A DNA stretch of 64,000 bases from Nemertoderma westbladi (taxonomy: Eukaryota; Animalia; Xenacoelomorpha). The notes beneath the pieces were generated by a model. The model had not been told where the DNA came from. It searched no databases and was given only the letters and a program-made list of their open reading frames with translations. A program made the position numbers and the translations under genes. The stretch spans positions 1 through 64,000 of the forward strand of contig JAUCBJ010006397.1 of the NCBI GenBank assembly GCA_032718475.1. The letters run 5' to 3'. Below, piece after piece: positions 1,434 to 54,050 of this stretch. Within the stretch, counting starts at the first letter, position 1. Every line of letters begins with the position of its first letter.

Positions 1434-1553
1434 AAAGTACTAGATTTTAAGACTCAAGGTAAAAATAATTTTTTACTTCAATTAATAATAATAAATAAAT
1501 AAATAATTCATAATTCATACATAATAATAATATATTATTTTGTGTTGGTTTAG

Positions 1554-5460: not shown

Positions 5461-5476
5461 TATTATGTTACTAGCC

Positions 5477-9565: not shown

Positions 9566-10234
9566 CTATTCCCCCAAACTGATTCTGCCATGGGGATCGT
9601 AAATGATCTCCCGATTGTGTCTGACCCAGCGGCGCCATAACAATGGCAACCGTATGATCGTTATAATAATGGCAAGGTATATGCAGAGTCCAGAGAGGAT
9701 ACCTAGCACCGCGCCAATCATCTGAACAACAAGTGGAGGCACGTCGCCCGTGGTATCAAATCTGAACGAAGGCGAGAAAATACATACACAAATAATAATA
9801 CTTATAGATACCCCTAGTATCGTTAAGTCTACTTTCTCCCCGATAGTGAGGAATGGAATGGTCCACTGAAGGAATGGTCTCATCCTTTGTTTTATCCCCT
9901 TGTATTTGCTGTGACACACTTCGCAGGTGTCTCGACCGGACGTGCGCACCCACGTGACGAGACACTGAGTGTGGATGAACCCAGCGGTTCCTCTGCAATC
10001 GCACGGCGTGATGAGTTCCAACGTGTTCGTGGATTCGGTACCTCGTTGTAAACATATTCGGCATTGTAGGGAAGATGTACTGCAGAAGCTGTGTCGTCTG
10101 CGCAGAAATCCTCCTCTTCCTCCAGCATTGGTAGGTTGTGACGAGCTATTAGTCACCGATAAGCTAGATGATGGTTCCGGCGATGCCAATGATGTTTGTG
10201 ACAATGTGCGACGACCGCCAATGGGATGTGGCAT
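9566..10234 (-). CDS. MARCH-family (RING-CH) membrane E3 ubiquitin ligase, intronless, nested antisense in the SIN1 intron
   Basis: C4HC3 RINGv: CRIC...PCDCRGTAGFIHTQCLVTWVRTSGRDTCEVC; two hydrophobic TM segments; W..W...N motif after TM2. Confidence 0.9.
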   Translation of the reverse strand: MPHPIGGRRTLSQTSLASPEPSSSLSVTNSSSQPTNAGGRGGFLRRRHSFCSTSSLQCRICLQRGTESTNTLELITPCDCRGTAGFIHTQCLVTWVRTSGRDTCEVCHSKYKGIKQRMRPFLQWTIPFLTIGEKVDLTILGVSISIIICVCIFSPSFRFDTTGDVPPLVVQMIGAVLGILSGLCIYLAIIITIIRLPLLWRRWVRHNREIIYDPHGRISLGE

Positions 10235-10756
10235 TGTACTCTTAATGTCTCTTTATGGTTTCCGGTCCAGAATTACTGCTAAGTTATGTTAAAAAGTTTG
10301 AATGCATGTACTAATTACTGTATCTTCGTTCAAATATTTTCAGAAATAATGTTTAATTTTAAGACAAGAAAGAGACTAATTTCTAGACCACATTGAAAGG
10401 TATAAATTTGGTAAAAGAATAAGAAAAACTTGTTATATAACTATAGCAAAAACTAGCTATGTGCATATGAATTTTATCTTTTCAATAAACCTTTTCATAA
10501 CAACAACTATCGTTCGAAAACTTATTTGCCTAAGTAGCAACATTAGCTAGTATGTATATGATTTTTAACTTTTCGGAAAAAGTTTTAGAATAAAACGTTT
10601 TATTCTAGTAGAGCTTTTATAATAATTGCTAATGCCAACTAATTAATTAATGAATTAATGCATGAAAACTAATGCATGTATTCTGGACATTTTGAAAAAT
10701 TTACATAAAATAGCTAGTATAAAAATTTGGGATGGGGGTAGGGTTGTACTACTGTA

Positions 10757-16950: not shown

Positions 16951-18918
16951 TCATTTAGTAAATGGTTTGTACAAATGACTATATCCTTTCATTCCGTGGA
17001 CAGCAGCAAGGTCCGTATCAACTTTATTTCCAGATTCAACCAATTTCTTGTGCTTGGAATCCTTCCACAATTTCACAGGCTCCTGATTATCGGTCACCCC
17101 GATCTCATTAATCGCATCTGAATCTAATTTACTAACTGAATTCCTTAAAGATTCATTAAATTCTTCTAAAACCTGAATTCTAATATTATTTGCGATGAGT
17201 TGCTTTTCCATCTGTCCTACTAGGGTATCATTCTGATAATCGATTGTAAGATCTGATTGATCTATATTTGTAAGATCGGGATATGCCGCCATCATTCGCA
17301 TGCGATCTCGTCTTTCGTCCAATTCGATCTCGACTTTAGTCAACGCGGCTCGCAAAGAATCAACCTCGGATACCATCGACTGATTGTCCTGAGAGAGTTG
17401 TCGCAACGAAGAAACTTTATCAGTAAGATTATCCTCAAACATCTTGTAATCATCTTGTAGACGTTGTTTCTCTCTCTCGATATCCTCTTTATCAGCCTCA
17501 AGGTCTCCCACCTGATTCCTCAGTTCATTACATTCCGTATCCAATTCGTCGAGACGCCCCAATAACGAGTCCTGCTTCCCTTTCAATGCCTCATTGTGTT
17601 TGTTAAGACTTTTTGATTTTGCTAACTCTTTATTGAGTAATTTAGTTGTGGTGGATAATTTGGTTGTCACTTCGTCCAGTTGGCCTTTGAGCGATTCAAC
17701 TTCGGTCTCTAATTGGCCCAACTCCCGTTTAAAAACCTCTATAGTTGATTGTCTTTCGCCGAGTTCATAACTTAAGTCCTTATTCGCTAATTCGCTTTTA
17801 ATAAACGAACTCTTTTGTTCAGCGAGTTCGATACTCAGTTTATTAATCCGTTCATCGAGATCATTCTTATCAGTTATTAATTCTTTGTTGATTTCTTTCA
17901 AAGAATTGATTTCTAAATCGAATTTCCTTTTATTTTCTTTTACATAAATCTCATGCTCACTTTTGATTTTATTTTGCTTAGACCTTTCACTGCTAAGTAT
18001 AATGTGGAGGCTGTCCATATCCTTTTTCAAGGAATTGCTTTTTTCCTCCAAATCAGTGACGTGCTTTTTCAAAGGATCTATTTCGCCGTGGAGGTCGGAA
18101 ATGAAGGTATTAATTTTCGCCAAATCTTTGCATTGCTCGAGACCCCATCCGCTTAGATCGTTAGCGGCCATCTGACCAACCATCGCCCCAAACTTCCTCT
18201 GGTAGGACTCGATGTCAGATTTAAGATTTTGCGATTGACAAACTTTAGATATCACCTTGGAGACTTCGGCCAACGAATGTTGCGTTAAATGGCAGGCTTC
18301 GCAAGGAACAAACGCCGTCTCGATGGTCTGCGATCCAACATTGCGTGTATCCAAAGAAACTGGACTTATTTTCTTTCGGTTAGAACAAATCTCATTCGAA
18401 TCGCCAACTTCAGTTTCTCTCAATATAAAATTTTCCTCAGTAAGTTTATCTAAGGCTTCTTCTAGCTTCAATATAGAACGAGTTTTTTCACGCGATTCGG
18501 ATGATAGTTGCTGCACTACGCTGTGCATTTGCACCGCTTTATTCCAGAACTTTTTCACGACCAGACCGACAGACATACTCCTCCCTATACCACCCTTGGT
18601 TACACTCGCTCCGGGTTTAGCCGCCGTCTGTTCGATGTATTGGGAGCTGCTCTGGAGACACAACATCAGTCTATCGATTACCAACTCCAGGAGAATAAAG
18701 TGCGCCATCTGGTTGTTCTCTTCATCGCCTTCCCGATAACTTTTGAGAGATATGATCTCATCAACATCGATATCTGAGGATATCTTATCGGGATATTTCC
18801 AAGACGGATATCGAACTGGCCCCGTTCGAGAGAAAATGCCGTTTATCGACTCTTGAATTTCAGTTATATCTCGTTGCAAAGCGGTAATACAATTTTCAGA
18901 GCCAAGAAGATAAGCCAT
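16951..18918 (-). CDS. CCDC157: Coiled-coil domain-containing protein 157, single coding exon
   Basis: N-terminus MAYLLGSENCITALQRDI...FSRTGPVRYPSWKYPDK, plus LLELVIDRL and SQTIETAFVPCEAC, are CCDC157 signatures; long coiled coil; ATG at 18918. Confidence 0.88.
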   Translation of the reverse strand: MAYLLGSENCITALQRDITEIQESINGIFSRTGPVRYPSWKYPDKISSDIDVDEIISLKSYREGDEENNQMAHFILLELVIDRLMLCLQSSSQYIEQTAAKPGASVTKGGIGRSMSVGLVVKKFWNKAVQMHSVVQQLSSESREKTRSILKLEEALDKLTEENFILRETEVGDSNEICSNRKKISPVSLDTRNVGSQTIETAFVPCEACHLTQHSLAEVSKVISKVCQSQNLKSDIESYQRKFGAMVGQMAANDLSGWGLEQCKDLAKINTFISDLHGEIDPLKKHVTDLEEKSNSLKKDMDSLHIILSSERSKQNKIKSEHEIYVKENKRKFDLEINSLKEINKELITDKNDLDERINKLSIELAEQKSSFIKSELANKDLSYELGERQSTIEVFKRELGQLETEVESLKGQLDEVTTKLSTTTKLLNKELAKSKSLNKHNEALKGKQDSLLGRLDELDTECNELRNQVGDLEADKEDIEREKQRLQDDYKMFEDNLTDKVSSLRQLSQDNQSMVSEVDSLRAALTKVEIELDERRDRMRMMAAYPDLTNIDQSDLTIDYQNDTLVGQMEKQLIANNIRIQVLEEFNESLRNSVSKLDSDAINEIGVTDNQEPVKLWKDSKHKKLVESGNKVDTDLAAVHGMKGYSHLYKPFTK

Positions 18919-19177
18919 TGTCAATTAAAATTGGAAGTCCGTGTAGATATAATTACCGACACAAATGTAAATTAAATTACGTTGTATTATGCTTACTTAG
19001 GGTGTAACAATTAAAATTAAATAAACATTAGCAATAGGAGCTCTACTTAAACTTCTTTCTCTCTACTTTGTATTCCTTTGGTTTGTATCCACCGATCAAA
19101 GGTGGTAAAGTACCGGTACCGGTAGCAAACATTCAGCATTCAGAGTAAGGGGAATGTAACAGTAGTTGTTTGCCGTG

Positions 19178-22568: not shown

Positions 22569-22750
22569 GTAAAGATATTAATCAGTAATAATGTACTTCG
22601 CTCATCCCACCGACAAAATATTTATTGTCTGTTTCATTTCTCGGTATTCCTCCTTTCTATTACTTTCATGTCCATTACATTAATTTCCGTTCTATTACTT
22701 TACTTATCATTACTTTCCATTCCACTATCTTTACCATTACTTTACTTTCC

Positions 22751-23630
22751 ATTACTTACCATCCAATTACTCTCCATTCCATTACTTACCATCCAATTAC
22801 TCTCCATTCCATTACTTACCATCCAATTACTCTCCATTCCATTACTTACCATCCAATTACTCTCCATTCCATTACTTTCCATCCAATTACTCTCCATTCC
22901 ATTACTTTCCATCCAATTACTCTCCATTCCATTACTTTCCATCCAATTACTCTCCATTCCATTACTTTCCATCCAATTACTCTCCATTCCATTACTTTCC
23001 ATCCAATTATTCTCCATTCCATTACTTTCCATCCAATTACTCTCCATTCCATTACTTTCCATCCAATTACTCTCCATTCCATTACTTTCCATCCAATTAT
23101 TCTCCATTCCATTACTTTCCATCCAATTACTCTCCATTCCATTACTTTCCATCCAATTACTCTCCATTCCATTACTTTCCATCCAATTATTCTCCATTCC
23201 ATTACTTTCCATCCAATTACTCTCCATTCCATTACTTTCCATCCAATTATTCTCCATTCCATTACTTTCCATCCAATTACTCTCCATTCCATTACTTTCC
23301 ATCCAATTACTCTCCATTCCATTACTTTCCATCCAATTATTCTCCATTCCATTACTTTCCATCCAATTACTCTCCATTCCATTACTTTCCATCCAATTAC
23401 TCTCCATTCCATTACTTTCCATCCAATTACTCTCCATTCCATTACTTTCCATCCAATTACTCTCCATTCCATTACTTTCCATCCAATTACTCTCCATTCC
23501 ATTACTTTCCATCCAATTACTCTCCATTCCATTACTTTCCATCCAATTATTCTCCATTCCATTACTTTCCATCCAATTACTCTCCATTCCATTACTTTCC
23601 ATCCAATTACTCTCCATTCCATTACTTTCA
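22751..23630. repeat. 30-bp minisatellite (ATTACTTTCCATCCAATTACTCTCCATTCC)n, ~29 copies, with degenerate pentamer flanks
   Basis: Read directly; explains the four repetitive ORFs in the track. Confidence 0.97.
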
Positions 23631-24965
23631 ATTCCAGTTCCTTTCTTCCCCATTTCCATTACTTTCCATTGCATTACATGCCTTTCTATTACATCCCCTT
23701 CAAATCATTTACATTCCATTCCATTATTTTCCATTCCACTACTCTCCTTTCCATTCCATTAGGCCTACTGTCCATACCATTACTTTTCTTGCCATTACGG
23801 GCCTACTTTCCATTAAACTGCCTTTAAAATTTTTTACTTTTTTTACTTTAAAACTTTTACAATTACTGTATACATTCACAATCCTAACCATCATCCATAT
23901 CCTCCATCCACTTCTTCATCACATTCTCAGTTAAGATTTCAGTTACATAGCATTTATAACTGCATGCTCATTAAAACCTGTGGGTAATGATATCACTGAC
24001 TAAAATGGTAACATCCTACCGGGATCAAATGGTTAAGGTTATCCGTCGTCTATCGAGAAGATTACGAACGTATTAGATAATAATATACTGTAGCAGTTGT
24101 TACTATAGGAACAAACGGGTTTTCGCGTGTCATTAACTTTTCCTACCGTACAAGCGGATACCAAGCCAAACTGGCCCAATCTGGGAGTGCCCTCACCGGA
24201 CACACCGGACAATATACCATACGATAGGATGCTCAGGGGGGGGGGGGGGGGGAATAGTAACATATGATAAACACCGGTAGCAACCCGAAGGCTCCTCTCT
24301 CTTGGTTGTTACCTATAAGGCAGGGAGGACGCAACACTAACTCCCAAGGTTGCACACTCCAGTATTATCAGACCCTTTCTTTACTCTGCCAGCACAATCC
24401 TAGTTCCTATTGTACCAATGGGTATGGTAGAATGCCCGGGTGGGGGTGGTGATAAATTGTAACACCGGTGCCGGTACTGTATGATGCTGTGTTCTGTAGA
24501 ACATGCCGATAGCTTTCATGTGTTACTGTTTGTGCTTCATTAACTGTTTGCTGCGAGCCGAATGTTTAGAACTTCTTTCAGTCGGACATTCAATCGGTTA
24601 GATTTAAAATCTATATATAACTTTCGCGAGGTTCGGTTTTCTGGTATATAATTCATTCATACCCGACACCCGTAGAAGTTTAGGATTTGTAGAATTAATT
24701 TAGTTATCGACTCGGCGTGAAGTCTTAACTTCCGAGTTTGTAAGGTTTAGTGTCTCCCCATCATTTTGGGAGGTTATAATGTTGTTTCTGGACCCAACAA
24801 TGTTTATACAGGTAATATGTAATAAATGTTTCTACCTATTTGAAATAAACTAATTAATTAAAACAATATACTTCAATTAGTTATTAATAATTAATATCCA
24901 CCAGAATGTACCCACGAGAGAACGCCTGTAAGGTCCACTATATTTATAAAATTAACGATATTCAG

Positions 24966-25219: not shown

Positions 25220-25967
25220 TACACTATATGACCCGCAATACCCAATATAGTGTCATTTTCGCTTCTCTTTTCGCTTCTCGTGTCTTTTGCGAAATAGCAC
25301 GCTCCAAATCGCGCCCATTCTTAAAATTAGTCGTAATTTTTCATATAATTAGAAAGCTTACGTTTCAAGGATTTCAAATATGTAACAATATCTGAATTTC
25401 GTTGAGAAACAGCTGAGATATAGGCGTTCAAAGATTGCAAGGAGTATATTTATTCTATTTAATAAATACACAATGTTCTGGAACATTTTGTTTTAGTATG
25501 AATAGCTACACAAAAGATCTATTGGATAGGCATTCCGCTGTTGCCCACCTACTTATATGTTCCAGAATATTGTGTATTTATTAAATATAATAAATGGCTT
25601 GCAGCGAACAATCATTCTTGCAATATTTGAACGCATAATATATATCAGGTGTTTCTTAACAAAAACTGTTACATATTTGGAATCCTCGCAACGCAAACTT
25701 TCTATTGATATGAAAAAAATTACGACTAATGTGAAGAATACGGAGGGTGCGATTTCGAAATTTAAAACGCTTATAAAAAAAATTTAAAGGCAAAATCGAA
25801 CGAAAATTCCGTCTTCATGTTAACAACCACGATGACTTGAACTAATTGTTTCAAATTAAAAGCAATATGCTAAAGATTTGTAGCAAAACTTTCTTTTTTT
25901 TGGGGGGGGGGGGGGGGGGGGGGGGGGGTGTCATAAAAAATGACACTATATTACGGGTCATGGTGTA
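25220..25967. mobile_element. Family A MITE, near full length, TA-flanked
   Basis: Left TACAC..ATGACCCG..AATATAGTGTCATTTT vs right AAAATGACACTATATTACGGGTCATGGTGTA; poly-G tract near the right end. Confidence 0.8.
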
Positions 25968-26183
25968 TAATTTGAACACATTGGAATTGTTCGTTACCTA
26001 GGATTAGCACTACTCGTTCAATATTAAATAATAATAATATTTTACACAATAGTAACCATGATAGAAGCTCTGGAGTAAATATGCTACCGTATGATCACCC
26101 ATGTAACTTTGTATGCAATAATAATATCTACAATTATATGTCGCATATAATTAATTGACGATTCTCCAATATTTTCTTATATT

Positions 26184-27677
26184 TTACACATTTTCAATGT
26201 TCCAGCCGAGTTGCAATTTGCTGCGCAGTATTTCTTTAGTCTTGATATGTTTCTTGGCCGTCTCAACTTCATCTAGAACATTCTTTCCAGACAATGCCAC
26301 CACGTTGTCACTGGTTTCGTTAGCGTTGACAGCAACAGCTGACAACTCAGATGGCTTATACAGATGTTGGTTTTTCCCCCTACTAAAATTGTGAAACTTC
26401 ATTCTTAGTTCATCGTTAACAATGGCGCTGTTTTCTCTTGTCTTAACGTCTGGATATATTAATCTATCTGCGAGGATTCCGTCTGCGTCTACTGAATCCT
26501 CTCGAACTTGATCCGAACGAATATTATCCGAATCGGATTTAATGAGAACTGCGAGATTGGTGTTGGTATCGTGAGCAGTGTTTACAACCGCATTTGTCTT
26601 CATCTGCATTATCTTTTCGTTGAGAACATTCTGTAGTTCTTCCTGACATATCCCTGGCAGCATCACTCCATATTTCATACCCAAGTGTTTCGTAGCGCCC
26701 CCAGCGACCTGACACGATAACGGGGTAGTTTCCCGTTGGTAGACAACCGGCTCCAGCAACCCCGAACATGCCTGTCCACCATCGCTACGCTCTTCCATCA
26801 TCTTTATATGATTGACATTAATTTTCCCCTCCACACCGGCGACTCTGCAGACCCAAGTCTCATCCGATCGCCTGTCAATCACCTCAACAACTTCGCCGCC
26901 CCGGAAATTAAGATACCCGACACTTAGGTCTCCATAGAAACTGCACGCCGTGACGAATGTCGGCGTTTTATGACTTTCAACGAGCTTCACATTAGACTCT
27001 AGCTCCTGTCTGTTTTCCACGTAATCACTAGGGCTGGTGTCATTTTCTAGTCGGAAGGGCTTGTGTACTGTAATAGACCCATCGTCGATAATATCTATCT
27101 TTTTATTTGTTAACTCAGGATCATCATTGGCCACTCGGAACACTTTACTATCCAAACCGTCCTCCACCTTATCTAAATACACGGCCTGCACGAAGCCTTG
27201 TTTGACCCATCCGTACTCATCTTTGATTCTAGCTAACCACCAACCCATAACATTCTTCTCCATCACTTTGATTTGGTCCCCTTTCTTCACCTGTAGTTCC
27301 CAGATGTAGTTGGAGAGTTTGTAGTCCTCGGCTACCACGTAGGTTTCCTCCTGTCCGGCTTCGTAGCGGATAGTTAGCTCCTGGTACGGCGGTCCGCCGT
27401 TCTCGTACCGGTAACGACCTCCTACAGCCCCGTAACCGCCAACAGCGACCTTCTGGAAATCTCCGAATTTGTCTTTCTTCAGTATCTCCACCGTATCACC
27501 GAAACTTTTATCATCGTTATGAGTTTCAACAACAGTTTTATGTTGTTTAGTTGTTTCTAACTTCTCGTTTGCGTCATTGGTTGCAATAACCTTGGCTTTT
27601 TCGTCGTCCCTCACTATGAGACACGCTTTCTCGAATTCTATACTTGTTTGAGTTTCGATCCTTCTGCTATGCAACAT
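26184..27677 (-). CDS. Intronless protein with two SH3 domains, nested antisense in CCDC105 intron 4
   Basis: ~500-aa ORF; SH3-1 YVVAEDY...ELQVKKGDQIKVMEKNVMGWWLARIKDEYGWV; degenerate SH3-2 FVTACSF...LNFRGGEVVEVIDRRSDETWVCRVAGVEGKI; first ATG at 27677. Confidence 0.75.
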   Translation of the reverse strand: MLHSRRIETQTSIEFEKACLIVRDDEKAKVIATNDANEKLETTKQHKTVVETHNDDKSFGDTVEILKKDKFGDFQKVAVGGYGAVGGRYRYENGGPPYQELTIRYEAGQEETYVVAEDYKLSNYIWELQVKKGDQIKVMEKNVMGWWLARIKDEYGWVKQGFVQAVYLDKVEDGLDSKVFRVANDDPELTNKKIDIIDDGSITVHKPFRLENDTSPSDYVENRQELESNVKLVESHKTPTFVTACSFYGDLSVGYLNFRGGEVVEVIDRRSDETWVCRVAGVEGKINVNHIKMMEERSDGGQACSGLLEPVVYQRETTPLSCQVAGGATKHLGMKYGVMLPGICQEELQNVLNEKIMQMKTNAVVNTAHDTNTNLAVLIKSDSDNIRSDQVREDSVDADGILADRLIYPDVKTRENSAIVNDELRMKFHNFSRGKNQHLYKPSELSAVAVNANETSDNVVALSGKNVLDEVETAKKHIKTKEILRSKLQLGWNIENV

Positions 27678-28686
27678 GTTGTAAGTTTTCAGCAAGTAAA
27701 ATTATTTATTAACAAAACAAATTAACAATTGTTACAACCAAAAATTTATTCATAAATATATTTCCTACTTCAGTTTAAGCTTGTTCCTTTATTGTAGTTA
27801 ATAAGAGTTAATAAGTATCTCTTAAAATCGTTTCAATACGTTACGGCCAATAATATGGTTATTGTGTTAGTGAACAACATGTACGACATTTACTAGTTCA
27901 AGAGTTGAATGAATGTACAGATAGGGAATGAGGTCATTGTTCTTTCCAATTAAAATTAAGTGACAACAATCATCTGTTTGCTACGAATAGTCAATTAGTT
28001 TGTATATTGGCTTTGGCAAACGTGAACTGATTATGTTACTGGTTTAAACATCGCGTTGGATTAATATTAGTTTTTGAATGATTTCCTTGTAATTAAAAGT
28101 TATCTAACTTAACAACAAACACCCAATATTACTTATCTCTCTCTACCACGGTGTGAAAATTTGGAGTGCAGCACAGGGCCGAGTCTAGTAACACTGGAGT
28201 GAAGTGAGGTTAGTGTTGTATTTCTGAAAAGGAGAATGGTTTTATAACATTATAATTAGTTATATTGAGTGAAATACGACGTGAAATAAAGTAAACTCAA
28301 TGATGAGCTATATGGGGTACTATAAATCACGTCGTGAAATAAAGTAATAGTATTCTTTCAGTATTGTACCCTATTCTACGGTCACGCTGAGGTAGACCTA
28401 ACAGTAACTCATTCATAACACGATACAAACCGCACAAGATACGTAGGTCGTTACCGGTACCATACCGTGGACAGGGCCAGTGTCACTCACACTGTCGCTG
28501 CCCCGGCAAAATAAATACGAAATTTAATCCCCAAATGTTGAGTTTTGAAAACAGAAATGAAAACAGTTTGAAAATTACAGGAGGGACTTACGGTGGGCAC
28601 ACAGCCAGAGTGAAAGTAAGTGTGAGTAAGTAAGTGAGTGAAAGTAAAGTCGAAAGTGAGTAAGTGAGAAAGTGAGTAAGAAAGTG

Positions 28687-29219
28687 AGTAAAGTAAAGTA
28701 AAGTAAAGTAAAGTAAAGTAAAGTAAAGTAAAGTAAAGTAAAGTAAAGTAAAGTAAAGTAAAGTAAAGTAAAGTAAAGTAAAGTAAAGTAAAGTAAAGTA
28801 AAGTAAAGTAAAGTAAAGTAAAGTAAAGTAAAGTAAAGTAAAGTAAAGTAAAGTAAAGTAAAGTAAAGTAAAGTAAAGTAAAGTAAAGTAAAGTAAAGTA
28901 AAGTAAAGTAAAGTAAAGTAAAGTAAAGTAAAGTAAAGTAAAGTAAAGTAAAGTAAAGTAAAGTAAAGTAAAGTAAAGTAAAGTAAAGTAAAGTAAAGTA
29001 AAGTAAAGTAAAGTAAAGTAAAGTAAAGTAAAGTAAAGTAAAGTAAAGTAAAGTAAAGTAAAGTAAAGTAAAGTAAAGTAAAGTAAAGTAAAGTAAAGTA
29101 AAGTAAAGTAAAGTAAAGTAAAGTAAAGTAAAGTAAAGTAAAGTAAAGTAAAGTAAAGTAAAGTAAAGTAAAGTAAAGTAAAGTAAAGTAAAGTAAAGTA
29201 AAGTAAAGTAAAGTAAAGT
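28687..29219. repeat. (AGTAA)n microsatellite, ~106 perfect units
   Basis: Read directly; degenerate AGTGAGTA units at 28610-28690. Confidence 0.98.
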
Positions 29220-30600
29220 CTCTCAGTTTATAAATCGGATGGCAAGTGAGATTAGGATTAATAATATTACTGCACGTTGTAAATCTGGTTGCAGTCACGG
29301 GTTTACTTGTAATACGCCTACGCATTTCAGTAAATGTATTCGGTACGTCATATTTTATTGCACTTTGTAAGATCCTATAACCTGGAGTATTATACTCTTT
29401 AGATACACGGTATATACGGTGGAATGGTATCTCTAGATCAGTATTATTAAACACTTTTCCCAAAAAGCTTTCCTACTTTTATAAACACGGTCTTTTACTG
29501 TTAACGTTCCTAATTCTAATAGACATAAATCAATCGGTATTTGTGAGCGGACGTTTAAAAGTATACGCACCATCCTACTGTACACTGACTCAACTGATGC
29601 AACATTATCAGATAACCAACTTTCTGAGCTGTACTATAAAATCTTAGACACAATTGCAGCTTCAAAAACTTGCCTCTTGAAAATGAACGGCATAGAGGAG
29701 TTTTTCCTAGAAAAAATACAAAACTTATTAAATATATGTTATAGTACATTATGATAATGATCTCCATAGCGAAAAATATCAACCACCCCTATTGGGGCTC
29801 GAACCCGGTACCTAGGTTTCAAAATTCCGGTTATCATCAGCCGAGTGTGGGTCCTAAGACCACTGAGCTACCAGGGCGGTAGAAGATTTATTCGCTTTGG
29901 AATGGGCTCTCATATTTAGGCCCTTTTCAGTCACTCATAGGAAAGTACAACGTTATTCCCGTGCTCTGCCAGAAATGGCAACCATGCCTCAAATAATAAC
30001 TATTATACAGTGTTGTAGAAACCACTGTAACCCCCTACCTTTACAGCATTATTCATCATATCAATTAAGTGATAAGAGCAAAATAGAAAAATTGAAGTGG
30101 GCGCCCCCTGGCGGATACCTATAGTACCAACTATACAAATCGATTTAAAGACACTAAAAGTTGACGAATAAAGTAATTTAATAGCCCTTAACATCACTTT
30201 ACCACACCCTAGGTTTTTGAAACGGTTCAACATACGGTCTCTAGGTCCAAATCATAGGCTTTCCTGAAATCAATGAACAGTACGTACAATTTTACTTTCC
30301 TATATACATCCAAATCCAATAATAAACGCAAAGATAAGATGTGCTCTATGCAACCCCGCCCCTTCTTACCCCAGGCTTGACATTTATTCGGCTGAAACCA
30401 CCGATTCGACCTGTCAGCTATCATTATATCAAATATCTTTGCACAAGTAGTCAACAGGCTTAATCCCCGGTAGTTCTCACATAAATTCCTATTACCACAG
30501 TTTTTATATATAGCGACCAATATACTTAGTAACCAAGATATCGGTAAACAACCTACTTGGAAAACTATATTAAACAAAGTGAGGAAATCAGTAACCAGAT
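29220..30600 (-). pseudogene. Decayed non-LTR retrotransposon RT/C-terminal fragment (RTEX-like)
   Basis: NYRGLS, GRGCIEHILSLRLL, FIDFRKAYD, GIRQGAPTS, KRQVFEAAIVSKIL*YSSESW with stops and frameshifts; the catalytic xxDD segment is missing at the 29741-30005 insert. Confidence 0.8.
29782..29880 (-). ncRNA. tRNA-like Pol III cassette (A box, B box) containing a hammerhead-like core; part of a ~265-bp insert (~29741-30005) in the LINE
   Basis: ACCGCCCTGG-TAGCTCAGTGG...CTCGG-CTGATGA-13nt-GAAA-CCTAGG-TA-CCGGG-TTCGAGCCC...AGGGGTGGT. Confidence 0.55.
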
Positions 30601-32077: not shown

Positions 32078-33349
32078 TTAATATCTCGGGAAGTTCTCGT
32101 CTATCTGTGTAGACCAGGCGTCTAGCCCTCCCACAATGTCTTTAATAACCAACCCGGACTTCTGTATGTCCGGGTTTTCCTTTAATATTCGTACAGATCT
32201 CTGGGAGTCGTTACCCTGCTTACACACGATAAATACTTTCAGTTTGCAACTATCCGCTATCTGCTGTTTTATTTCACGACATTGCTCTAATAATTTATTG
32301 CAGTAACCATGGGAACGTTTAAGTTTGCTGTAGGGCAATGAAAACTGAAAGTTTTTATTCACCGGTAGTGAACATAATTCCAGCTCTACAGGTTCTCGTA
32401 CATCGACTAGCAGACAGGGGTCGCCACGATCCAGACATTCCTTGTATTCCGTCACGGAGATTCTCTCGCTTTTATCCAGCAGTTCGACCCTCCGACATTT
32501 ATCGTTAGGCCCCGCCCCGCAGAACTCCGTATAATCGATATCGTTGAGTCGCTGGATAGATGAATGAATTCCGCACACTGGGCAATCGAAGCGCCGTCCG
32601 CGCAACCGTACCGTACGGAAACCGAACCGCAACCCGTCCAACACCAGCAGCTTCCCCGCGTACAACGACGGCAACCCGGCCGCTAGTTTAATCCCTTCTA
32701 GGGCCTGGAGACAGCCGATAATCCCCGGTACCACGCCCACAACGCCCCCTTCCGAGCAGTTGGTCACGGTGTCCGGGTGAGGGGGCTCCGGGTACAGACA
32801 CCGGTAGCACGGCGATCCATCGTGGTTGTACACGGTCAGCTGACCTTCCCAACGCAAAGCGCTACCGGAAACCAACGGTTTACCCGTTAGAACGCAAGCG
32901 TCGCTCACTAGGTAACGTGTAGCTACGTTGTCGCTACAATCGAATATTACGTCGTATTTACCGACTAATTCTAAGGCGTTCTCGCGGTCTAGTTGTAAGT
33001 TATGTTTGTAATAATTAATTTCTGAGTTTAGTTTGTTCAGCGAGTTGACTGCCGAATCGACTTTCGGTGTTCCGATGTCTGACTCCCCGTGTAGGATCTG
33101 CCTGTGCAGGTTGCTGATGTCGACACAGTCACCGTCTACTAGGCCTATGTTACCGACACCGGCTGCCGCTAGGTACTGCAGACAGGGGCAGCCCAACCCG
33201 CCCCCCGCCCCGATGAGAAGGACTCGGGATTTAGCGAGTCGTAGCTGTCCGGTTACGCCAAGCTCCGGGAGGATTAACTGTCGACTGTAACGGCTGATAT
33301 CGTGGTTGTTTAGTAGACAACTGGTTTCTTCTTTGGAATAGGTCGCCAT
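32078..33349 (-). CDS. MOCS3: MOCS3/UBA4 adenylyltransferase-sulfurtransferase, intronless, nested antisense in CCDC105 intron 4
   Basis: RYSRQLILPE, SNLHRQILH, DCSDNVATRY, PCYRCLYP, TNCSEGGV, CPVC, and rhodanese loop CKQGNDSQ ending ...FPRY. Confidence 0.95.
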   Translation of the reverse strand: MATYSKEETSCLLNNHDISRYSRQLILPELGVTGQLRLAKSRVLLIGAGGGLGCPCLQYLAAAGVGNIGLVDGDCVDISNLHRQILHGESDIGTPKVDSAVNSLNKLNSEINYYKHNLQLDRENALELVGKYDVIFDCSDNVATRYLVSDACVLTGKPLVSGSALRWEGQLTVYNHDGSPCYRCLYPEPPHPDTVTNCSEGGVVGVVPGIIGCLQALEGIKLAAGLPSLYAGKLLVLDGLRFGFRTVRLRGRRFDCPVCGIHSSIQRLNDIDYTEFCGAGPNDKCRRVELLDKSERISVTEYKECLDRGDPCLLVDVREPVELELCSLPVNKNFQFSLPYSKLKRSHGYCNKLLEQCREIKQQIADSCKLKVFIVCKQGNDSQRSVRILKENPDIQKSGLVIKDIVGGLDAWSTQIDENFPRY

Positions 33350-33557
33350 TTTATAAAACGAAGGTAGCGATTGATAACAAGAAAGGAAACAATGACCTAC
33401 CCAGCCCCAGCTACTATACCTAACGCTGTAACGTCAGAACGTACCGCTACTAACAAAAAGTGATGTGTGTGCCACACTCAAATAACTTAACCTTAAGCAA
33501 TGCTGATGATATAGAAGGAAATTTAAAATACACTAGGCCTATTACATTGTATTAAAT

Positions 33558-38316: not shown

Positions 38317-39847
38317 CCAATCAGAGATCGATATACGAAGAGGTGTAACTCTATTGGATAATAGTGGCGACCACAACTATAATTCCATATATTAAGGTCC
38401 CTGTATCTTATCATTAGTTATTATTTATGAGTATATGGTGATATTAAAAAACTTAATGAATAGTATTAAACGTTTATGTTAATCATCGTGCTAACTCTTT
38501 TTTTTTCTTATATCAATATTTATCGTTATTTGGTAAAATAGTCAAATAAATTAATGAATGTTCAGGATGGATGGAATATGGGACCACAACGACAACCTAG
38601 AACGACAAGCGTTTTTACGAACAAAATTGAAACCTTAGCCGGAGAAACTTTTTTCAAACGCTTGTAGCTAAAGAATGAAAGCGAAAATAAAAATTCTGGC
38701 TTACCCAGTAGGAGGAGGTAGGTGAAACTAATTAGGTTTCAAAATTCATGGAATCTCATTAAGATTTGTAGAAAAATTGGGGGGGGGGGGGGGGGGGGGG
38801 GGGGTCCATGTCACTGAATTACGACATTATATTCCAGGACATGGTGTACGCCTGTAAGTATACAGGCTCAGCAAATAGTAGCAGGAAATTAATGATTGTT
38901 TTTTTAATATAAATCCAATAGTTTTGTTGGTAAGCCTATAAGAACCTTCAATTATTTTGTTAATCTTGAGTTGGTGTAGAAACATAGTAGAAATGAATGG
39001 GGAACCCACGGGTTAAGTGAAGTTATCAAGGTGCATTTAGTGGATATGAAATTGCACCAAAATGTAAGTGAATGTACTGCACACCGTTGTGCATCACTAC
39101 TCAATGACATTCACTCAGTGCATCAATCACCATTAATTAACGTGTTGTTAAGAAATTGACACATTCCTCCTGGTAAATACATTAGGGGGATTCAGTCATT
39201 CAGACAAGGCTTTATCTATGATTAATAATATACAGACAGGGTGTTCCACAAAAACAGGTGTGCGGGGTTGACTCTTAACGCTATCGAAATGGAAGCAGCT
39301 ACAATGGAAAATCGACGCAAATAACAGCTGATTATACCCTATTGGGTTGTGTTACTGTGCTAATTGTGCTATTGTGATAATGGTTTTGGTTAGAATAACA
39401 TGTCGTTGTAACCTGCTCCTTTCCCTTAATTTATAATTATATTTGTACATTATCCGGTATGGGATTTGAATCAATACACCCCCCCCCCCCCCCCGCCCTC
39501 CATATCTCTCCTCAAAATGCGATGTTTGTATCGGTCGTCCACGAGAACGCCTTCCATGTGTTGGTTGCCAGACAAGTAGATCTGATAAGACTTCGTCATT
39601 ACTTCTCCAGCAGTTCCCACGGAATCATAATCAGCGTTCACGTGCTGTACAGTATGTTGTACCATAAAGCTCGGTGTTTACAATCTCCAGCTGATGTTTT
39701 TAGGGCTACCCTTAGTAATCTTGTGTAACAATTAATTCGTTGTTCAAGTAATTTCGTGTCCAGCGTCCAGGTCTCACCACAGTACACCATATCCTGGCAT
39801 AAAGTGTGGTTATTCTGGTACATGTAGTACACATCCAAATATGTAAC

Positions 39848-40498
39848 CAATAGAAAGCTTGCGTTGCAAGGATTCCAAATATGTAACAATATCTGAATTT
39901 CGTTGAGAAACAGCTGAGAAATAGGCATTCAAAGATTGCAAGAATTATTGTTCACTGCAGGCCATTTATTCTACTTAATAAATACACAATATTCTGGAAC
40001 GTGTTATTTATTTTATGAGTTGGCTAGGCAACAGCGGTATGCCTATACAATATCTATATTGCCTAGCTAATCATACATAAACAAATTGTTCCAGAATATT
40101 GTGTATTTATTAAATAGAATAAATGGCCTGCAGTGAACAATAATTCTTGCAATCTTTGAATGCCTATTTCTCAGCTGTTTCTCAACGAAATTCAGACATT
40201 GTTACATATTTGGAATCCTTGCAACGCAAGCTTTCTATTGATGTGAAAAAATTACGACTAAAGTGAAGAATGGCAATGATACAGAGGGTGCGATTTCGCA
40301 AAAGACACTTTTTTAAAACGCTTATAAATAAAATTTAAAGGCGAAATCGAAAATTCCGGCTTCATGGTAACAACCACGGTGAGTTGAACTAGTTGTGTTT
40401 CAAATTTCAAGCAATATGATAAAGATTTGTAGAAAAATTTGGGGGGGGGGGGGGTCCGTGTCATCAGAAAATGACACTATATTACGGGTCATGGTGTA
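39848..40498. mobile_element. Family A element with an internal 153-bp-arm hairpin
   Basis: 39848-40000 is the near-perfect reverse complement of 40088-40240; right terminus ...GGGTCATGGTG|TA. Confidence 0.85.
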
Positions 40499-43060
40499 TA
40501 TATGTAAGGAAAGTAGGCCCATGCTAGGCCCACGGTAGGCCCTACAAAATACACGAATTTGTAGATGAAGACATACTGTGTTCTAGCAGGACCATTTGGA
40601 TTAGTTAAAACGATATATTTTTAATGTGGTCATAAAGAAATTAATGACATTCCGGTTTCATTAATTACATATTACCATTAGCACGTTGACGGCCTCGTCA
40701 TCAGGAACGGAAACGCCCAAACCGCAAACAGCGGCGACTATGTAATAAAGAGCGTTATTGTTATATTTGCATTACGAACCGTCACTGGAAACACATTGAA
40801 AATAAATGTTTAATATATAGCATGAACTACTTTGAGATATAAAATACCTGTATAACAAATTATCCCAATAAGTAAAGACAGATGTGTAGCTACTTACATT
40901 CACTACTGTACCAAAGTGTAAAAGCTTCCCACGCCGCCTAAAGTAACAAAGGTGAACACAGGGAGTTCAAAAATCCCATTCACACCCAACATGGGGCCCC
41001 TGTTGAACCACTTTAAGATAATTACAATTTCTCTATACCCCCAAAAGCGCAGTCACCATTTTGATTTAAATTAAGCTTAATTTATTGGATGTGTTTGATG
41101 AAGCCTACTGTATATTCTAGCAACGCATGGCCACTCATTGTAGTTCTGTGAAAATGTTCAGCCTTCCAAGTATTTCCTCGAAGTAGTGCCCTTGATAAAT
41201 AAATTAATTGGGTTGACGTTTAATTAAATCCAACAGGGAATGCCGAATTATAATCCTCCATCTATACAATGAATAGCATGCAGCATTGTAATAGACCCTT
41301 TGTTAAAGTACAGTAACTATAATAAAGTATTAAGGTAAGTTGCCAAATAATTAATTGTATTCGGGAACCTAATAAGCTAAGAGTATGCATGAAAAAATTA
41401 GAAATTAACAAAATTCTTAGAAATTAACCGTTGTTCTTTAAAAATAGTCTGATTCTATCTGTGGTTGCAACGGTATTAGTATTTAGGTGGTCATATAAAT
41501 CCGTCACACCGGTCGAAATTAAATCTGCAATCTGCATAGCATTGATAGACCCCGGCAGCCCCCACGGCACGGGGGTAGTACAGTTCATATGAATTATAAA
41601 CAGCACAAAGGTAAAGAATATAAGTACAGTCAGGTAAATAAATACTCACCTAGGTAAATATACAGTAGAGAGGCAATAATAGGCCTACACAAGCAAAAAT
41701 ACACATACAAGTTATAATTAACAAATAAGTTTTTTTTCCTCATTTAAGTCTCATTTATTTACATAGATAGTAAAAAATTTTACAAAATTCAGATAATGTT
41801 AAACAATACATACCCATCGCCAGCTCACGTTACTAAGCAACAAATTTAAGAGGGAAAATTAAAAACTATTATTACCAAATAAGTAGGCCCATTGATATTC
41901 CAAGTATAATATTATTGGTTCATAAGATCCCATACAGGTTTAATCAGTTAACAGCGATGTAATTCAGTACCTGAGTGACTTCAAGTTCAAGTAGAGGGAA
42001 GTTCTAAACATTATATAAGTTTATACGACAGCCAATAATATGCTCCTTAGAAAATTGAGCTTTCGCCTACAATTAACAGGACACAGGGCGTGACATTGCC
42101 TAAAATGTGTGACTTATTAAGGGGGGGGGGGGGGGGGGGGGGGGTAGTCGAATTTAAATAAAATTTTGAAAGGCGTTCTTATCTGATTCAGTATTTTACG
42201 CTGATTCCAAATCTGCAAACAGTTTTACCATATTATCTTGTTTGTTTTAGAGATGTATTTATATATAATATGGAGAAGGTTAGTATTTGATTTCAATTTC
42301 TGTAATTTTTTAGGCTCATTAGTGCCTAATTGTCAATGATAAAACTGCGACTCGATCATAAATAGCGAGTTGTTTGATTTTACCCCACACATGACAGTGT
42401 GCGGCTTTCTTGCAGCAATAGCTGCAAGCCATTGAGGTCTTAGCAAAAAATGTCTAATTATTATACTATGGCTAGTTATACTGTATATTGGCTTCCAAGA
42501 AGATAATTAATGAGTTTTGTTCATATGGTTATAATTCTTTGGGGAGGAACATGCCTAGATATTAATTACTCGATATTATATTTTAGACTATGCGTACATT
42601 TAGATTATACTAAATCGGTAGATGACTAGAATAAGGTAAAAAGGGCTTCGTGAAACTTACACCTGTGTTCATTTTTATACATTTTTGGATTGGAGCGCCT
42701 CAAATTTAGTACCTTTACCAACTATTAGCATTCTACTACTGTACTAGCTGTAGACTCGAACATATGACATAATTTAGTTGTTCGCTAAAGAAAGGAAGCA
42801 CAATAATTCGCTCACACTAAATCGCATTGTACCGGAAAATATTATTTAATCGAGATAAGCGATTCTTAAAGTTTAACAACCTCATCTTTGGTCGTACAGA
42901 TCGCTAATTCAGGGCTCATTTTAAAGGGAATTAAAAAAAAAATGCTCGTTATGTTATTTATGGGCGTTTAATTGAGGTCCATAAACAAGTCTACAGGGTT
43001 AATGAAGGCAAGGAAGGGTCTTTCACCACGTGGATATAAGAACACGAAAATTAATTATTT

Positions 43061-46662: not shown

Positions 46663-48552
<1,890 letters not shown>

Positions 48553-49695
48553 TTATACAATTAAATTATTTAAACATCTAACTATTAATCTACGAAAAAT
48601 ACAATCCAGACTAAAAACTACATAACCAATGGGGGGCAAATGCTCTTGTTCTGGATTGCAGATCATAAATATAAATATGTTTTTCCTTTTCTTATTATCC
48701 TTATTGTTGTGCATTACCCTTTCATGCAGAGATACAGTATGCGTTTTGGTGTGTAATTTTGAATACCGGTATTCCAATGTTGTTAATATTTAATTAATAA
48801 ATTAATTGTATGCAATTTAACTATTAAGTTATATACGTTACATACTTGTGTCTTGTGTGTAAAGTAGCACATTACAGTGTGAAGATCCGAGTGGCTTTGT
48901 TACACGAACGAACGTTAGTGAGAAAGTTTACGTTCAACAATGGATGTACTATTAGCCAGGGACAGGATACGATACGAAAATGGATTTATCGCAAAAATTT
49001 ATACGTATTGAATTTCGTATCGTACCATAAAAATTAACTTCGTATCGTATAATACGAATAAATATTTTTCGTATTTCGTATCGTATTTTCGTATTTATTA
49101 TTTTGTAAATATTAATGTTTTCAACAGTCAAACCACATAATTTTTACATTTTTTTCCTCTAAATTGGGGCAAAATTAGGATGTATAGTATATAAACTATA
49201 TATTTTGAATGGGAATTAAACTAATAATAATCATTTGATGCCAGCTGGACAACAGTGGGATTATTGATGAGAATCATAGCATTATATACCTGCTGAAGTC
49301 ACCGAATCATGTATACACTACCTATGGATGGTTTAGTGAAAAATGCAAGATATCTGCCGGACTATACCTGTGCAGTCTAAATATGGTACGGTATTTTGAA
49401 TTTGATATGTCACTAATGGTTTTCATTGGCATAATAGGCATTTGCGTTGCTAACAATAATATATAAAAGGTGCATGGAATACATTTTAATATAGTAACAC
49501 TCCAACCCCCTCCGCCCACTTTAAAACCCCTTGGGCCTTCTTGCGTCATGTAGGCTACATTAAATACCTCCACGCCGGTTGGCAGTCAGTACCCAACCCA
49601 CCCATCTATGTAATTGGGTAATTCAAAAATTGTTGGCAATAACGAATTATTTAATTATTGATTATAAATATATTGCTAAGTCTATAAAGCTCGGG

Positions 49696-49709
49696 GTTGC
49701 TAGGGCAAC
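49696..49709. promoter_or_regulatory. X-box-like palindrome in the SERCA intron
   Basis: GTTGCTAGGGCAAC. Confidence 0.35.
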
Positions 49710-50932
49710 GAATCGATGTTTGTTATTATGTTAACTCCCCACCCCCCCCCCCCCCCCCCCCATCCTCACCAAAGTCGGATACAGAAAGAAATATAAATTA
49801 ATCCTTTGTATTCCACTAATCAACCTCCTAATCTATAATTCAAATGTAAATTCCGCTAGTTTATTCACATAAGTTATATACGTGTCCAGTCGTATATAGT
49901 GTGCATAGCACAAATATATAAGTGGTACCGGGAATGTTGTGAAATATTTAATCGTGGAAATTATTATTTATATGTTCTTTAATTTTTGACTAGGAAAAGG
50001 ATTACTTTTCCAATAATAGTGATGCTGATGTGAAGGACATAAACAACATAAAACTTTCTTATTTCACTTTCAACAATCTTGTGTCGGAAAAATTGAATTG
50101 CTAATATTTATAAAACGGTTGTACCCCCCCCCCCCCCCCCCCCGCTCCACCCGTCTCGGCCAGTTAAATAAATTAACGTAGGAGGCAATGCCTACCATAA
50201 CTGGCGGGAATTCACCACTTGTTCTTTCTTCACTAGTAACTGGGATTCCAGTGATTGCGACATGCGAATGCTCACAGCTCAAATTGTGTACGTGGTGGAT
50301 TACCTGAAAACCTTAAGGGCGTAAAACCAAAGACACTATAGTGTCAACAGACACTAGTGAGATACCGCGGATTTTAGAGAATGTTCATTACAGTAACAAC
50401 CCTTAGAAAGCAGTAAATTGCATGGGAATGAGACAACCATGGAAGTAAATAGTAAGTTAATTAAATAACAACAGGAGTGGCTGTCATCCAAGGGAACTGG
50501 TTGTTAGCCATCTGAGATCCATGTGGTACAGTACGTGTACCGGTACAGGTATAAAGGCAGGCCAAATTAAGGAAGAACTTAACTCAGTGAGTGATTGAAC
50601 GTAACAATATACCTACATAACATATCAGCATCACTTAAACAAACTGGTTTATTATTCTGCCATACATGGACCAGTGAGTAGTTGGTAAGCACCCACCCGG
50701 TCATACACCACTGCATAAGGACAGTAATTATAAATTCATAGAATGATATAAATATAGTAATTGTAGAATTCGCAACACATGCGTCTCCCACACTGGGCGT
50801 GGGCGTGTTCGTCCAATATATACCAAGTGGTTGCAATATCTTCTAGATTTGCTGCATTAGTGGCACTTCCAGCGGTAAACTTCAGATATACAGCGACATA
50901 TATTGGTGTTTTACTACTACTAGGATCGGCAT

Positions 50933-52694: not shown

Positions 52695-54050
<1,356 letters not shown>

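What the first reader, a model, noticed from the sequence alone, without database searches (positions are those of the whole stretch)
29741..30005. Hammerhead-ribozyme-like core embedded inside a tRNA-like Pol III cassette
Seen on the minus strand: a terminal stem (ACCGCCCT/AGGGGTGGT), A box TAGCTCAGTGG and B box GGTTCGAGCC. Between them lies CTCGG-CTGATGA-(13 nt)-GAAA-CCTAGG-TA-CCGGG. This gives a complete catalytic core, a palindromic stem III, a GUA triplet, and a 5-bp stem I formed with the 5' strand of the T-arm, so cleavage would fall at the T-stem base (29809/29808). The TCGG can instead pair with CCGG as an anticodon-like arm, so tRNA and ribozyme folds would be mutually exclusive. Established: Pol III SINE-like repeats with hammerheads exist (Schistosoma Sm-alpha), and Penelope minimal hammerheads use palindromic stem III to dimerise. 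Inference: a self-cleaving tRNA-SINE/retrozyme-like family. Caveat: stem II (TAACCGGAATTTT) barely pairs in this copy, and CTGATGA could be a GAT duplication of a CT-GAT-AA anticodon loop.
Basis: partly seen in the sequence, partly recalled or inferred. Interest (0 to 1): 0.8.

Follow-up and report, generated by a model that had tools for sequence, protein, structure and literature searches.

The report
Retrozyme whose ribozyme splits its promoter
This is one decayed copy of a very abundant non-coding repeat of an animal, in which a hammerhead self-cutting-RNA motif sits between the two boxes of a tRNA-type promoter sequence; it is likely a jumping RNA element whose predicted cut would split its own promoter, so that only re-joined (circular) or uncut RNA would give new copies able to start again.

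Summary
The motifs are real: a complete type I hammerhead core between exact A and B boxes, the only such hit in 64 kb (0.017 per shuffle). It is one copy (29741-30034, minus strand, 8 private changes) of a high-copy repeat. Family letters restore helix II (99%) and often improve helix I; the core is nearly invariant, though not significantly so (P 0.5). It is not a tRNA/ribozyme switch: the cloverleaf is broken and about half of the family's laid depth lacks the anticodon-like arm. It is not an ordinary SINE: at least 154 family bases precede the tRNA-like head and there is no poly(A) tail or target duplication. A 12-bp stem spans the predicted start and a T5 terminator, pointing to long or circular RNA. 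Best reading: a Sm-alpha-like retrozyme, new in that the cut falls between the boxes. Against: T5 should stop most Pol III transcripts; no cleavage, RNA or array was shown here. The scan noted this layout before in the same genome (e1-10614364, e1-10653974; same family not shown). This copy is probably dead and replaces about 104 codons of a dead LINE.

The parts
29741..30034 (-). One solitary, 5'-incomplete copy of a high-copy non-coding repeat family; 8 private changes in 294 bases
   Evidence: Laid-contig depth 22,000-341,000 inside against 57-75 in the flanks for run X1, same pattern in X2 and X3; private positions
29860..29870 (-). A box of a tRNA-type (type 2) Pol III promoter
   Evidence: Sequence; only A+B pair in the window, 0.03 per shuffle
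29796..29805 (-). B box; its first three bases are also the end of the 3' strand of hammerhead helix I
   Evidence: Sequence
29803..29846 (-). Type I hammerhead motif: helix I 6 bp, core CUGAUGA (29840-29834) and GAAA (29820-29817), GUA triplet
29821..29833 (-). Helix II: U.U at the base, 3 pairs in the family (2 in this copy), 5-base purine-rich loop with the common variant at 29828
29810..29817 (-). Helix III: 2 bp plus palindromic tetraloop; 8-bp self-duplex between two RNAs predicted at -13.4 kcal/mol
29808..29809 (-). Predicted cleavage site, between the A box and the B box
   Evidence: Hammerhead numbering (established knowledge); alignment to Rfam HH9
29782..29880 (-). tRNA-like cassette closed by an 8-bp stem; cloverleaf broken; in the hammerhead fold the A box pairs with the B box as an extension of helix I
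29772..29776 (-). T5, the only run of 4 or more T in the family version of the 294 bases; Pol III terminator position, and also one strand of the long stem
29762..29902 (-). Outer stem: 29902-29891 pairs with 29773-29762 (12 bp with family letters), spanning the predicted Pol III start and the T5
29881..30034 (-). Family sequence upstream of the tRNA-like head; other copies go on beyond 30034
   Evidence: Depth table and shared loose ends at 30034 in X2 (6 contigs), X3 (7), X5 (1)
29730..29752 (-). Zone in which many copies end, with unlike AT-rich flanks and no poly(A) tail
   Evidence: Loose ends at 29736-29750: 10-14 contigs per place, agreement 0.53-0.58, median length 228-255
30035..30586 (-). 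Host: dead LINE reverse transcriptase, part before the insert
   Evidence: tblastn with intact relatives, 38-47% identity; phmmer
29448..29738 (-). Host: the same LINE after the insert; about 104 codons with the LMDD catalytic motif are missing between the two parts

Best explanation
This is one decayed, solitary copy of an abundant non-coding animal repeat, lodged in a dead LINE, whose hammerhead motif lies between tRNA-type A and B boxes; it is likely a retrozyme that is predicted to cut itself in pairs, would close into circles and is likely pasted back by a Penelope-type enzyme. Steps: (1, shown) high-copy family, conserved core and boxes, long self-paired rod. (2, inferred) Pol III starts near 29880; most transcripts would stop at T5 after about 108 bases, a few would read through tandem units. 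(3, predicted) two hammerheads pair through the 8-base palindrome and cut after GUA, leaving unit RNAs that begin with the B box and end behind the A box. (4, inferred from retrozyme work) an RtcB-type ligase closes the circle, which re-joins A and B. (5, inferred) a Penelope-type reverse transcriptase starts in the AT-rich zone 60-75 bases past the cut site and copies round the circle across the joint, giving permuted copies such as this one. This copy is probably inactive: helix II is weakened, it has gained a T4 inside the cassette and it has no neighbouring unit.
For: Motif significance; end-to-end HH9 alignment. Family of hundreds of contigs per run in three studies (831, 691, 1273 laid; 715, 352, 36). 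Family letters restore helix II (99.4-100%), turn U.G into C-G in helix I (43-72%), and vary in loop II (44-64%). Helix sizes match canonical metazoan type I hammerheads (PMC4209133); the U.U base of helix II with a 2-bp helix III and tetraloop matches axolotl HHR_Amex2, which cut 22% as a monomer and much better as a dimer (PMC7229834 section 15). Folding: the double-hammerhead state equals or beats two free monomers for family versions (-70.1 vs -70.2; -76.1 vs -70.2) but not for this copy (-59.7 vs -63.0). At least 154 family bases precede the head; no poly(A), no target duplication. The 12-bp stem spans start and terminator; family versions fold with z -2.4 to -2.5 over the whole insert against -1.05 for this copy. 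Copies end in an AT-rich zone, as Penelope insertions do (PMC11167929); animal retrozymes are linked to Penelope elements (bioRxiv 10.64898/2026.07.22.740005).
Against: T5 directly behind the cassette stopped 95% of human Pol III transcripts from U6-type promoters (PMC5725217 section 6), and some copies have T7 (loose ends). No two-sided compensatory change was seen; 0 of 13 polymorphic sites in 15 core bases is not significant (P 0.50). As a monomer the hammerhead fold is predicted only when both common variants (29828, 29844) are present (helix I probability about 0.9; 0.03 or less in the other versions of the 100-base cassette); their linkage is unknown, and free dimers fold 6-13 kcal/mol below the double hammerhead. 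No pile-up of contig ends at the cut site is listed (18 of 157 loose ends shown). No tandem array, no Penelope partner and no RNA was seen here. Only 1 of 9 predicted Xenopus retrozyme dimers cut in vitro. The Rfam score is far below the family threshold.
Confidence: 0.5

Rival explanations
1. It is a retrozyme-like repeat, but the boxes do not make its unit RNA: Pol III yields only a roughly 108-base RNA that ends at T5 (or nothing), and the propagating RNA comes from read-through by another polymerase, as proposed for promoter-less retrozymes.
For: T5 sits where a tRNA gene's terminator sits and is the only such run in the family version; 95% termination at T5 in human cells; T7 variants exist; retrozymes are thought to rely on read-through (PMC7761336).
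Against: Both boxes are nearly invariant in the family (no B-box variant at 1% in X2 or X3; one A-box variant at 2-7%); the T5 is also explained by pairing with upstream AAUAAA in the rod; 5% read-through could feed stable circles (inference).
Confidence: 0.2
2. It is the end repeat plus 'tail' of a protein-coding Penelope-like element that has captured a tRNA-like promoter; solitary copies are truncated insertions of that element.
For: Copies end in a narrow zone shortly after the hammerhead, at AT-rich flanks, without target duplication, as Penelope tails do (PMC11167929); an ATG inside the core opens a 32-codon frame; earlier unchecked notes reached this reading for similar repeats in other genomes.
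Against: The hammerhead is of the canonical type, not the Penelope minimal type with long helix II and short helix I (PMC4209133); a 32-codon frame is unremarkable; unchecked notes report non-coding arrays with this layout in the same genome. No genome was available to test linkage.
Confidence: 0.17
3. It is a tRNA-derived SINE-like repeat moved as uncut RNA; the hammerhead is a relic or is held off by the anticodon-like hairpin and plays no part.
For: The anticodon-like arm or other hairpins dominate in versions with G at 29828 (probability 0.6-0.98 after private changes are reverted); laid depth runs on across the cut site; hammerhead cutting was dispensable for PAc insertion in vitro.
Against: At least 154 family bases upstream of the head and no tail do not fit a SINE; all core bases, helix II and the palindrome are kept, while tRNA stems are lost.
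Confidence: 0.11
4. The hammerhead core is a chance match inside a repeat.
For: Rfam score below threshold; loose patterns give chance hits in large collections (14 metagenome matches, 0 of 14 related).
Confidence: 0.02

Closest known systems
Sm-alpha / Sj-alpha SINE-like hammerhead retroposons of Schistosoma (seen as passages in PMC6765202 and PMC2770079; the primary papers were not held)
   Same: tRNA-derived Pol III promoter and type I hammerhead in one high-copy repeat; multimers cut into units; single copies lose the ability to spread.
   Different: There the promoter is followed by the hammerhead and stays whole at the 3' end of the cut unit. Here the hammerhead lies between the A and B boxes, shares bases with the B box, and its cut would separate the boxes; a T5 follows the cassette.
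Metazoan non-LTR retrozymes (Cervera and de la Pena 2020, PMC7229834; Li et al., bioRxiv 10.64898/2026.07.22.740005), closest motif HHR_Amex2 of axolotl
   Same: Short non-coding repeat, canonical type I hammerhead with 2-bp helix III and tetraloop, U.U at the base of helix II, self-paired RNA, monomer copies dispersed, proposed Penelope partner.
   Different: Described as lacking promoters (PMC7761336 passage); tandem arrays, circles and cleavage are shown there and not here.
Rfam Hammerhead_HH9 (RF02275)
   Same: Aligns over the whole model, including the core, the start and end of helix III, a 6-bp helix I and a purine-rich loop II.
   Different: 14.9 bits against 52; distal helix I and helix II have mismatches; HH9 has no Pol III boxes in the aligned consensus.
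Penelope-like elements and their end repeats (PMC4209133; PAc of Anolis, PMC11167929)
   Same: Type I hammerhead with palindromic helix III; insertions end a short way past it at AT-rich DNA.
   Different: No coding sequence linked here; metazoan Penelope hammerheads are mostly minimal, with helix II of 7-8 bp and helix I of 4-5 bp.
Cassandra, Helenus and Ajax non-autonomous LTR elements (PMC10886601, passages)
   Same: A small-RNA-gene promoter built into the middle of a repeat unit rather than at its head.
   Different: LTR elements with primer-binding sites; no ribozyme in the passages read.

Membership tests
Type I hammerhead ribozyme | Core CUGANGA, GAAA and NUH in type I order | tested here: met
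   variants at core positions below 1% of depth in X2 and X3
Type I hammerhead ribozyme | Helices I, II and III can pair | tested here: met
   Family: 6 bp, 3 bp plus U.U, 2 bp; helix II has only 2 pairs in this copy
Type I hammerhead ribozyme | Compensatory covariation in the helices | tested here: inconclusive
   Only a one-sided change (29844) was seen; copies could not be aligned as sequences
Type I hammerhead ribozyme | Self-cleavage | not testable with these tools
   Needs an assay
Rfam Hammerhead_HH9 | Score at or above gathering threshold 52 | tested here: not met
   14.9 bits for this copy; family versions could not be scored
Metazoan non-LTR retrozyme | Short non-coding repeat with a canonical type I hammerhead, many copies | tested here: met
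Metazoan non-LTR retrozyme | Head-to-tail arrays | tested here: inconclusive
   None in the window; no genome; arrays with this layout only in unchecked notes, no sequence look-alike returned
Metazoan non-LTR retrozyme | Unit-length linear and circular RNA | not testable with these tools
   No run on record as RNA was listed
tRNA-derived SINE | A and B boxes | tested here: met
tRNA-derived SINE | Element begins at the tRNA-like head | tested here: not met
   At least 154 family bases lie upstream
tRNA-derived SINE | A-rich or simple-repeat tail and target-site duplication | tested here: not met
   a duplication could have been lost with the missing LINE stretch
Sm-alpha / Sj-alpha | Pol III promoter followed by a hammerhead | tested here: not met
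   The hammerhead is inside the promoter against the layout in PMC6765202
Sm-alpha / Sj-alpha | Sequence homology | not tested
   No Sm-alpha sequence was available from a tool
tRNA gene | Cloverleaf with four stems and a 7-base anticodon loop | tested here: not met
   ARAGORN and Rfam negative; D stem 2 of 4, T stem 3 of 5
Penelope-like element end repeat | Joined to an RT plus GIY-YIG reading frame | not testable with these tools
   No genome held; this copy is flanked by LINE sequence
Penelope-like element end repeat | Minimal hammerhead with long helix II and short helix I | tested here: not met
   against PMC4209133

The most novel reading that the evidence does not exclude
A ribozyme and a Pol III promoter interlocked in one tRNA-sized cassette: the cut separates the A box from the B box, so the promoter is restored only by circularisation or in tandem arrays, which would couple the element's fertility to the circular RNA stage. 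The spacing of the cassette (67 bases from box A to the T loop against about 46 in tRNA, recalled) can be read as a tRNA gene turned into a hammerhead by a few small insertions, among them the GAT duplication, which would be a traceable birth of a ribozyme from a tRNA.
Probability: 0.25. Interest if true: 0.78.

Novelty: new variant of a known kind. Interest (0 to 1): 0.5.

Why it matters
Retrozymes are described as lacking promoters, and how they are transcribed so strongly is open. A family with its own Pol III boxes, whose ribozyme would cut between them, makes that question testable with one short construct and gives a simple reason why such elements need a circular stage. It would also link tRNA-derived SINEs, Sm-alpha and retrozymes in one design. 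The copy in this window is itself a likely dead fossil, promoter-plus-hammerhead repeats are known from schistosomes, and the scan has noted the layout before, so the gain is a variant and a mechanism to test, not a new class.

Tried and rejected
No second copy in the window. No RNA holder listed; run X5 (organism B, RNA only by guess) gave 2 contigs at depth 3-4 and is not used as evidence of expression. Pattern scans: viral contigs 0 matches and 3 matches, 0 of 3 tRNA- or hammerhead-like on inspection; metagenome contigs 14 matches, 0 of 14 similar to the element by BLASTN or called as tRNA; prokaryote genomes 0. Earlier-findings look-ups by sequence and by relatives returned nothing. The depth profile peaks at 29813-29817 and falls on both sides; I rejected reading this as truncation because private changes of this copy reduce what can be laid. 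Depth ratios of 4,600-9,100 are not copy numbers, since overlapping contigs are summed. Comparing energy changes of family variants with 147 random substitutions was uninformative (63% of random changes did not raise the energy). The z of -3.3 to -5.1 for 29755-29910 is inflated because the range was chosen after seeing the stem. A MOCS3 search placed the host only as an animal without relatives above 55% identity among the 120 listed. Terminal inverted repeats of a MITE were not found. The idea that the cassette is part of the LINE reading frame was rejected: the 99 codons score only 17-30 against the missing LINE stretch in the 25 relatives printed. Ferbeyre 1998 and Lunse 2017 were not held.

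Full report
Observation. In hammerhead terms: helix I 29846-29841 with 29808-29803 (6 pairs, one U.G), core CUGAUGA 29840-29834, helix II region 29833-29821, GAAA 29820-29817, helix III of two pairs round the tetraloop CUAG, GUA ending at 29809. The A box (29870-29860) lies upstream and the B box (29805-29796) overlaps the 3' strand of helix I. A hammerhead descriptor finds this site alone in the window, against 0.017 hits per dinucleotide shuffle (300 shuffles); an A/B descriptor likewise, against 0.03. Rfam HH9 aligns over its whole length but at 14.9 bits against a threshold of 52; wider scans gave no hammerhead. No tRNA is called at normal thresholds.

It is a copy of an abundant family. 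No genome is held and the window has no second copy, so I laid public contigs on the locus. In three DNA runs 831, 691 and 1273 contigs were laid, with summed depth thousands of times that of the flanks between about 29740 and 30034; a run from a third study agrees. The ratio is no copy number, but hundreds to thousands of copies is a fair inference. This copy differs from 96% or more of the laid depth at 8 of 294 positions, and 13 further positions are polymorphic at 5% or more in at least one run. Contigs with a different flank haplotype also run into the element (X1 record 1), so the insertion is not fresh.

The family keeps the hammerhead better than this copy. At 29824, 99.4-100% of depth carries the letter that completes helix II to three pairs above a U.U base. 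At 29844, 43-72% turns the U.G of helix I into C-G. At 29828, 44-64% changes a loop II base. Two core positions are listed as variable, 29836 (the free N7) and 29837 (A6), at 0.14-0.84% in the two deep runs and 7.5% and 3.9% in the shallow run (2 and 1 contigs). Limits: positions near the ends of the laid stretch are blind (29785 and 29786 appear but not); only contigs at least 80% alike are laid; no two-sided change was seen; and 0 of 13 polymorphic sites in 15 core bases has P 0.50. A rare contig form has another 5' strand of helix I before the same CTGATGA, but its partner strand is deleted, so it cannot be scored (table 5c).

It is not a working tRNA or a tRNA/ribozyme switch. The D stem keeps 2 of 4 pairs and the T stem 3 of 5. 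This copy passes ARAGORN only at 90% threshold, and 0 of 6 family-letter versions pass. The variant at 29828 destroys the anticodon-like arm and spares the hammerhead. The arm is still a real competitor in folding: with G at 29828 it has probability 0.6-0.98, and helix I forms as a monomer (about 0.9) only with both common variants. Because this copy has neither and each is near half, a two-haplotype family with both variants together is the simplest guess, but phase is not shown. The palindrome gives an 8-pair duplex of -13.4 kcal/mol; modelled as a linked dimer, the double hammerhead equals or beats two monomers for family versions, not for this copy, though free dimers lie 6-13 kcal/mol lower. 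The geometry fits the canonical metazoan type I hammerhead (helix I 6 bp, helix II 4 bp, helix III 1-2 bp with a palindromic loop) rather than the Penelope minimal form (PMC4209133 passages), and the axolotl HHR_Amex2, with the same U.U and 2-bp helix III, cut 22% as a monomer and much better as a dimer (PMC7229834 section 15).

It is not an ordinary SINE. Family sequence extends 154 bases upstream of the tRNA-like head and continues beyond 30034 in other copies, with a loose-end consensus shared between runs. At the other end many copies stop within 29736-29750 and go on into unlike AT-rich DNA; there is no poly(A) tail and no target duplication. The copy sits in a dead LINE: in 37 of 150 relatives that passed my filters (700 residues or more, both flanks aligned) a median of 104 residues (94-110), including the LMDD motif, lie between the two flanks, and the insert does not resemble them. 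So about 310 LINE bases are gone, at insertion or later; a later loss could also have removed a duplication and the element's 5' part.

A long stem points to RNA longer than the Pol III unit. Bases 29902-29891, upstream of the predicted start, pair with 29773-29762, at and beyond the T5; family letters at 29897 and 29902 complete 12 pairs, and family versions of the whole insert fold at z -2.4 to -2.5 (1 of 100 shuffles as good) against -1.05 for this copy. Such a stem cannot form in a transcript that starts at the head and stops at T5. The T5 is the only run of four or more T in the family version. It is the main difficulty for Pol III as the source of unit RNA: T5 stopped 95% of transcripts from a human U6 promoter (PMC5725217 section 6; other promoter type and organism), and some copies have T7. 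This copy has gained a T4 inside the cassette.

Mechanism. Shown: family, motifs, layout, host site. Predicted by folding: rod and dimer hammerhead. Inferred from retrozyme work (PMC7229834 part 4 of 6; bioRxiv 10.64898/2026.07.22.740005 parts 2-3 of 5; PMC11167929 passages and first half of the main text): read-through of tandem units, cutting after GUA, closure by an RtcB-type ligase, and copying by a Penelope-type enzyme that starts internally and inserts at AT-rich DNA. What follows from the layout alone is that a cut unit begins with the B box and ends behind the A box, so a DNA copy with a whole promoter, like this one, must come from a circle or an uncut multimer. Laid depth runs on across the cut site and no pile-up of ends is listed there (18 of 157 loose ends shown), which fits this but equally fits a ribozyme that never cuts. 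I give this reading 0.5; retrozyme-like repeat without Pol III drive 0.2; Penelope end repeat 0.17; relic hammerhead in a SINE-like repeat 0.11; chance 0.02.

Comparison. Sm-alpha and Sj-alpha join a Pol III promoter and a hammerhead, described as promoter followed by ribozyme (PMC6765202 and PMC2770079 passages); the primary papers were not held, so the exact overlap of boxes and ribozyme there rests on a review figure legend. Retrozymes are described as promoter-less (PMC7761336 passages). Nine searches listed no paper whose title, abstract start or the passages I read describe a hammerhead between A and B boxes; the library lacks most subscription journals, Repbase and Dfam were not available, and I read no supplements (those of PMC7229834 and the preprint list many retrozyme sequences and could hold such a case). 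PMC10886601 and PMC8782182 were seen as passages. The host is an animal that I could not place further. Hammerhead numbering, tolerance of N7 and GUA, and tRNA spacing are recalled knowledge.

Earlier notes of this scan report the same nested layout in the same genome, as a 19-unit array of 369 bases and a triple array without target duplication, and a 411-412-base family with the hammerhead behind the promoter. They are unchecked, and sequence look-ups returned no look-alike, so identity with this family is not shown. Notes from other genomes supplied the Penelope-end rival.

Verdict. Real and non-random; a new variant of a known kind; this copy likely dead; interest 0.5.

Noticed in passing
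window 5348-8722 (+): Uninterrupted 1124-codon LINE frame with endonuclease and RT domains, RTE-like by recall; a possibly active autonomous element.
   Followed up: partly
window 55053-55654 (-): A second fragment of the LINE group that hosts the insert, 32-43% identical to the same relatives.
   Followed up: partly
window 28687-29219: A perfect 5-base microsatellite of 106.6 units directly at the 3' end of the host LINE remnant.
   Followed up: no
window 4908-5468, 25280-25969, 38643-38848, 39848-40505: A repeat family with inverted internal arrangement and long G runs in some copies, 70-91% alike; one copy abuts the start of the intact LINE frame.
   Followed up: no
window 29741-29752 (-) and loose ends: Loose letters of one X5 contig and the X1 consensus suggest that the family continues into an 8-pair AT hairpin whose loop is where this copy ends; the LINE flank resembles that continuation over a few bases. 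Weak evidence.
   Followed up: partly
window 29739-30035: The insert is almost the length of the missing LINE stretch (99 against about 104 codons) and keeps the LINE frame on both sides; coincidence or a repair-type replacement.
   Followed up: partly
table 5c and loose ends at 29847 and 29849: Minor family forms: one keeps CTGATGA behind another helix I strand but lacks helices II-III and the B box; one has a shortened A-box-to-core spacer; one has other sequence in place of the A box.
   Followed up: no
window 46663-54050 (-), 32078-33433 (-), 9566-10252 (-), 16951-18924 (-), 26184-27701 (-): Host genes with very long exons: a SERCA-type pump (by recall of its motifs) in two large frames, single-frame MOCS3, a RING-variant ligase, a coiled-coil protein and an SH3 protein; the genome looks intron-poor.
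   Followed up: no
window 1-1434 and 22671-23761: Tandem arrays of 25 bases (57 copies, 98% matches) and of 30 bases (31 copies, 97%).
   Followed up: no
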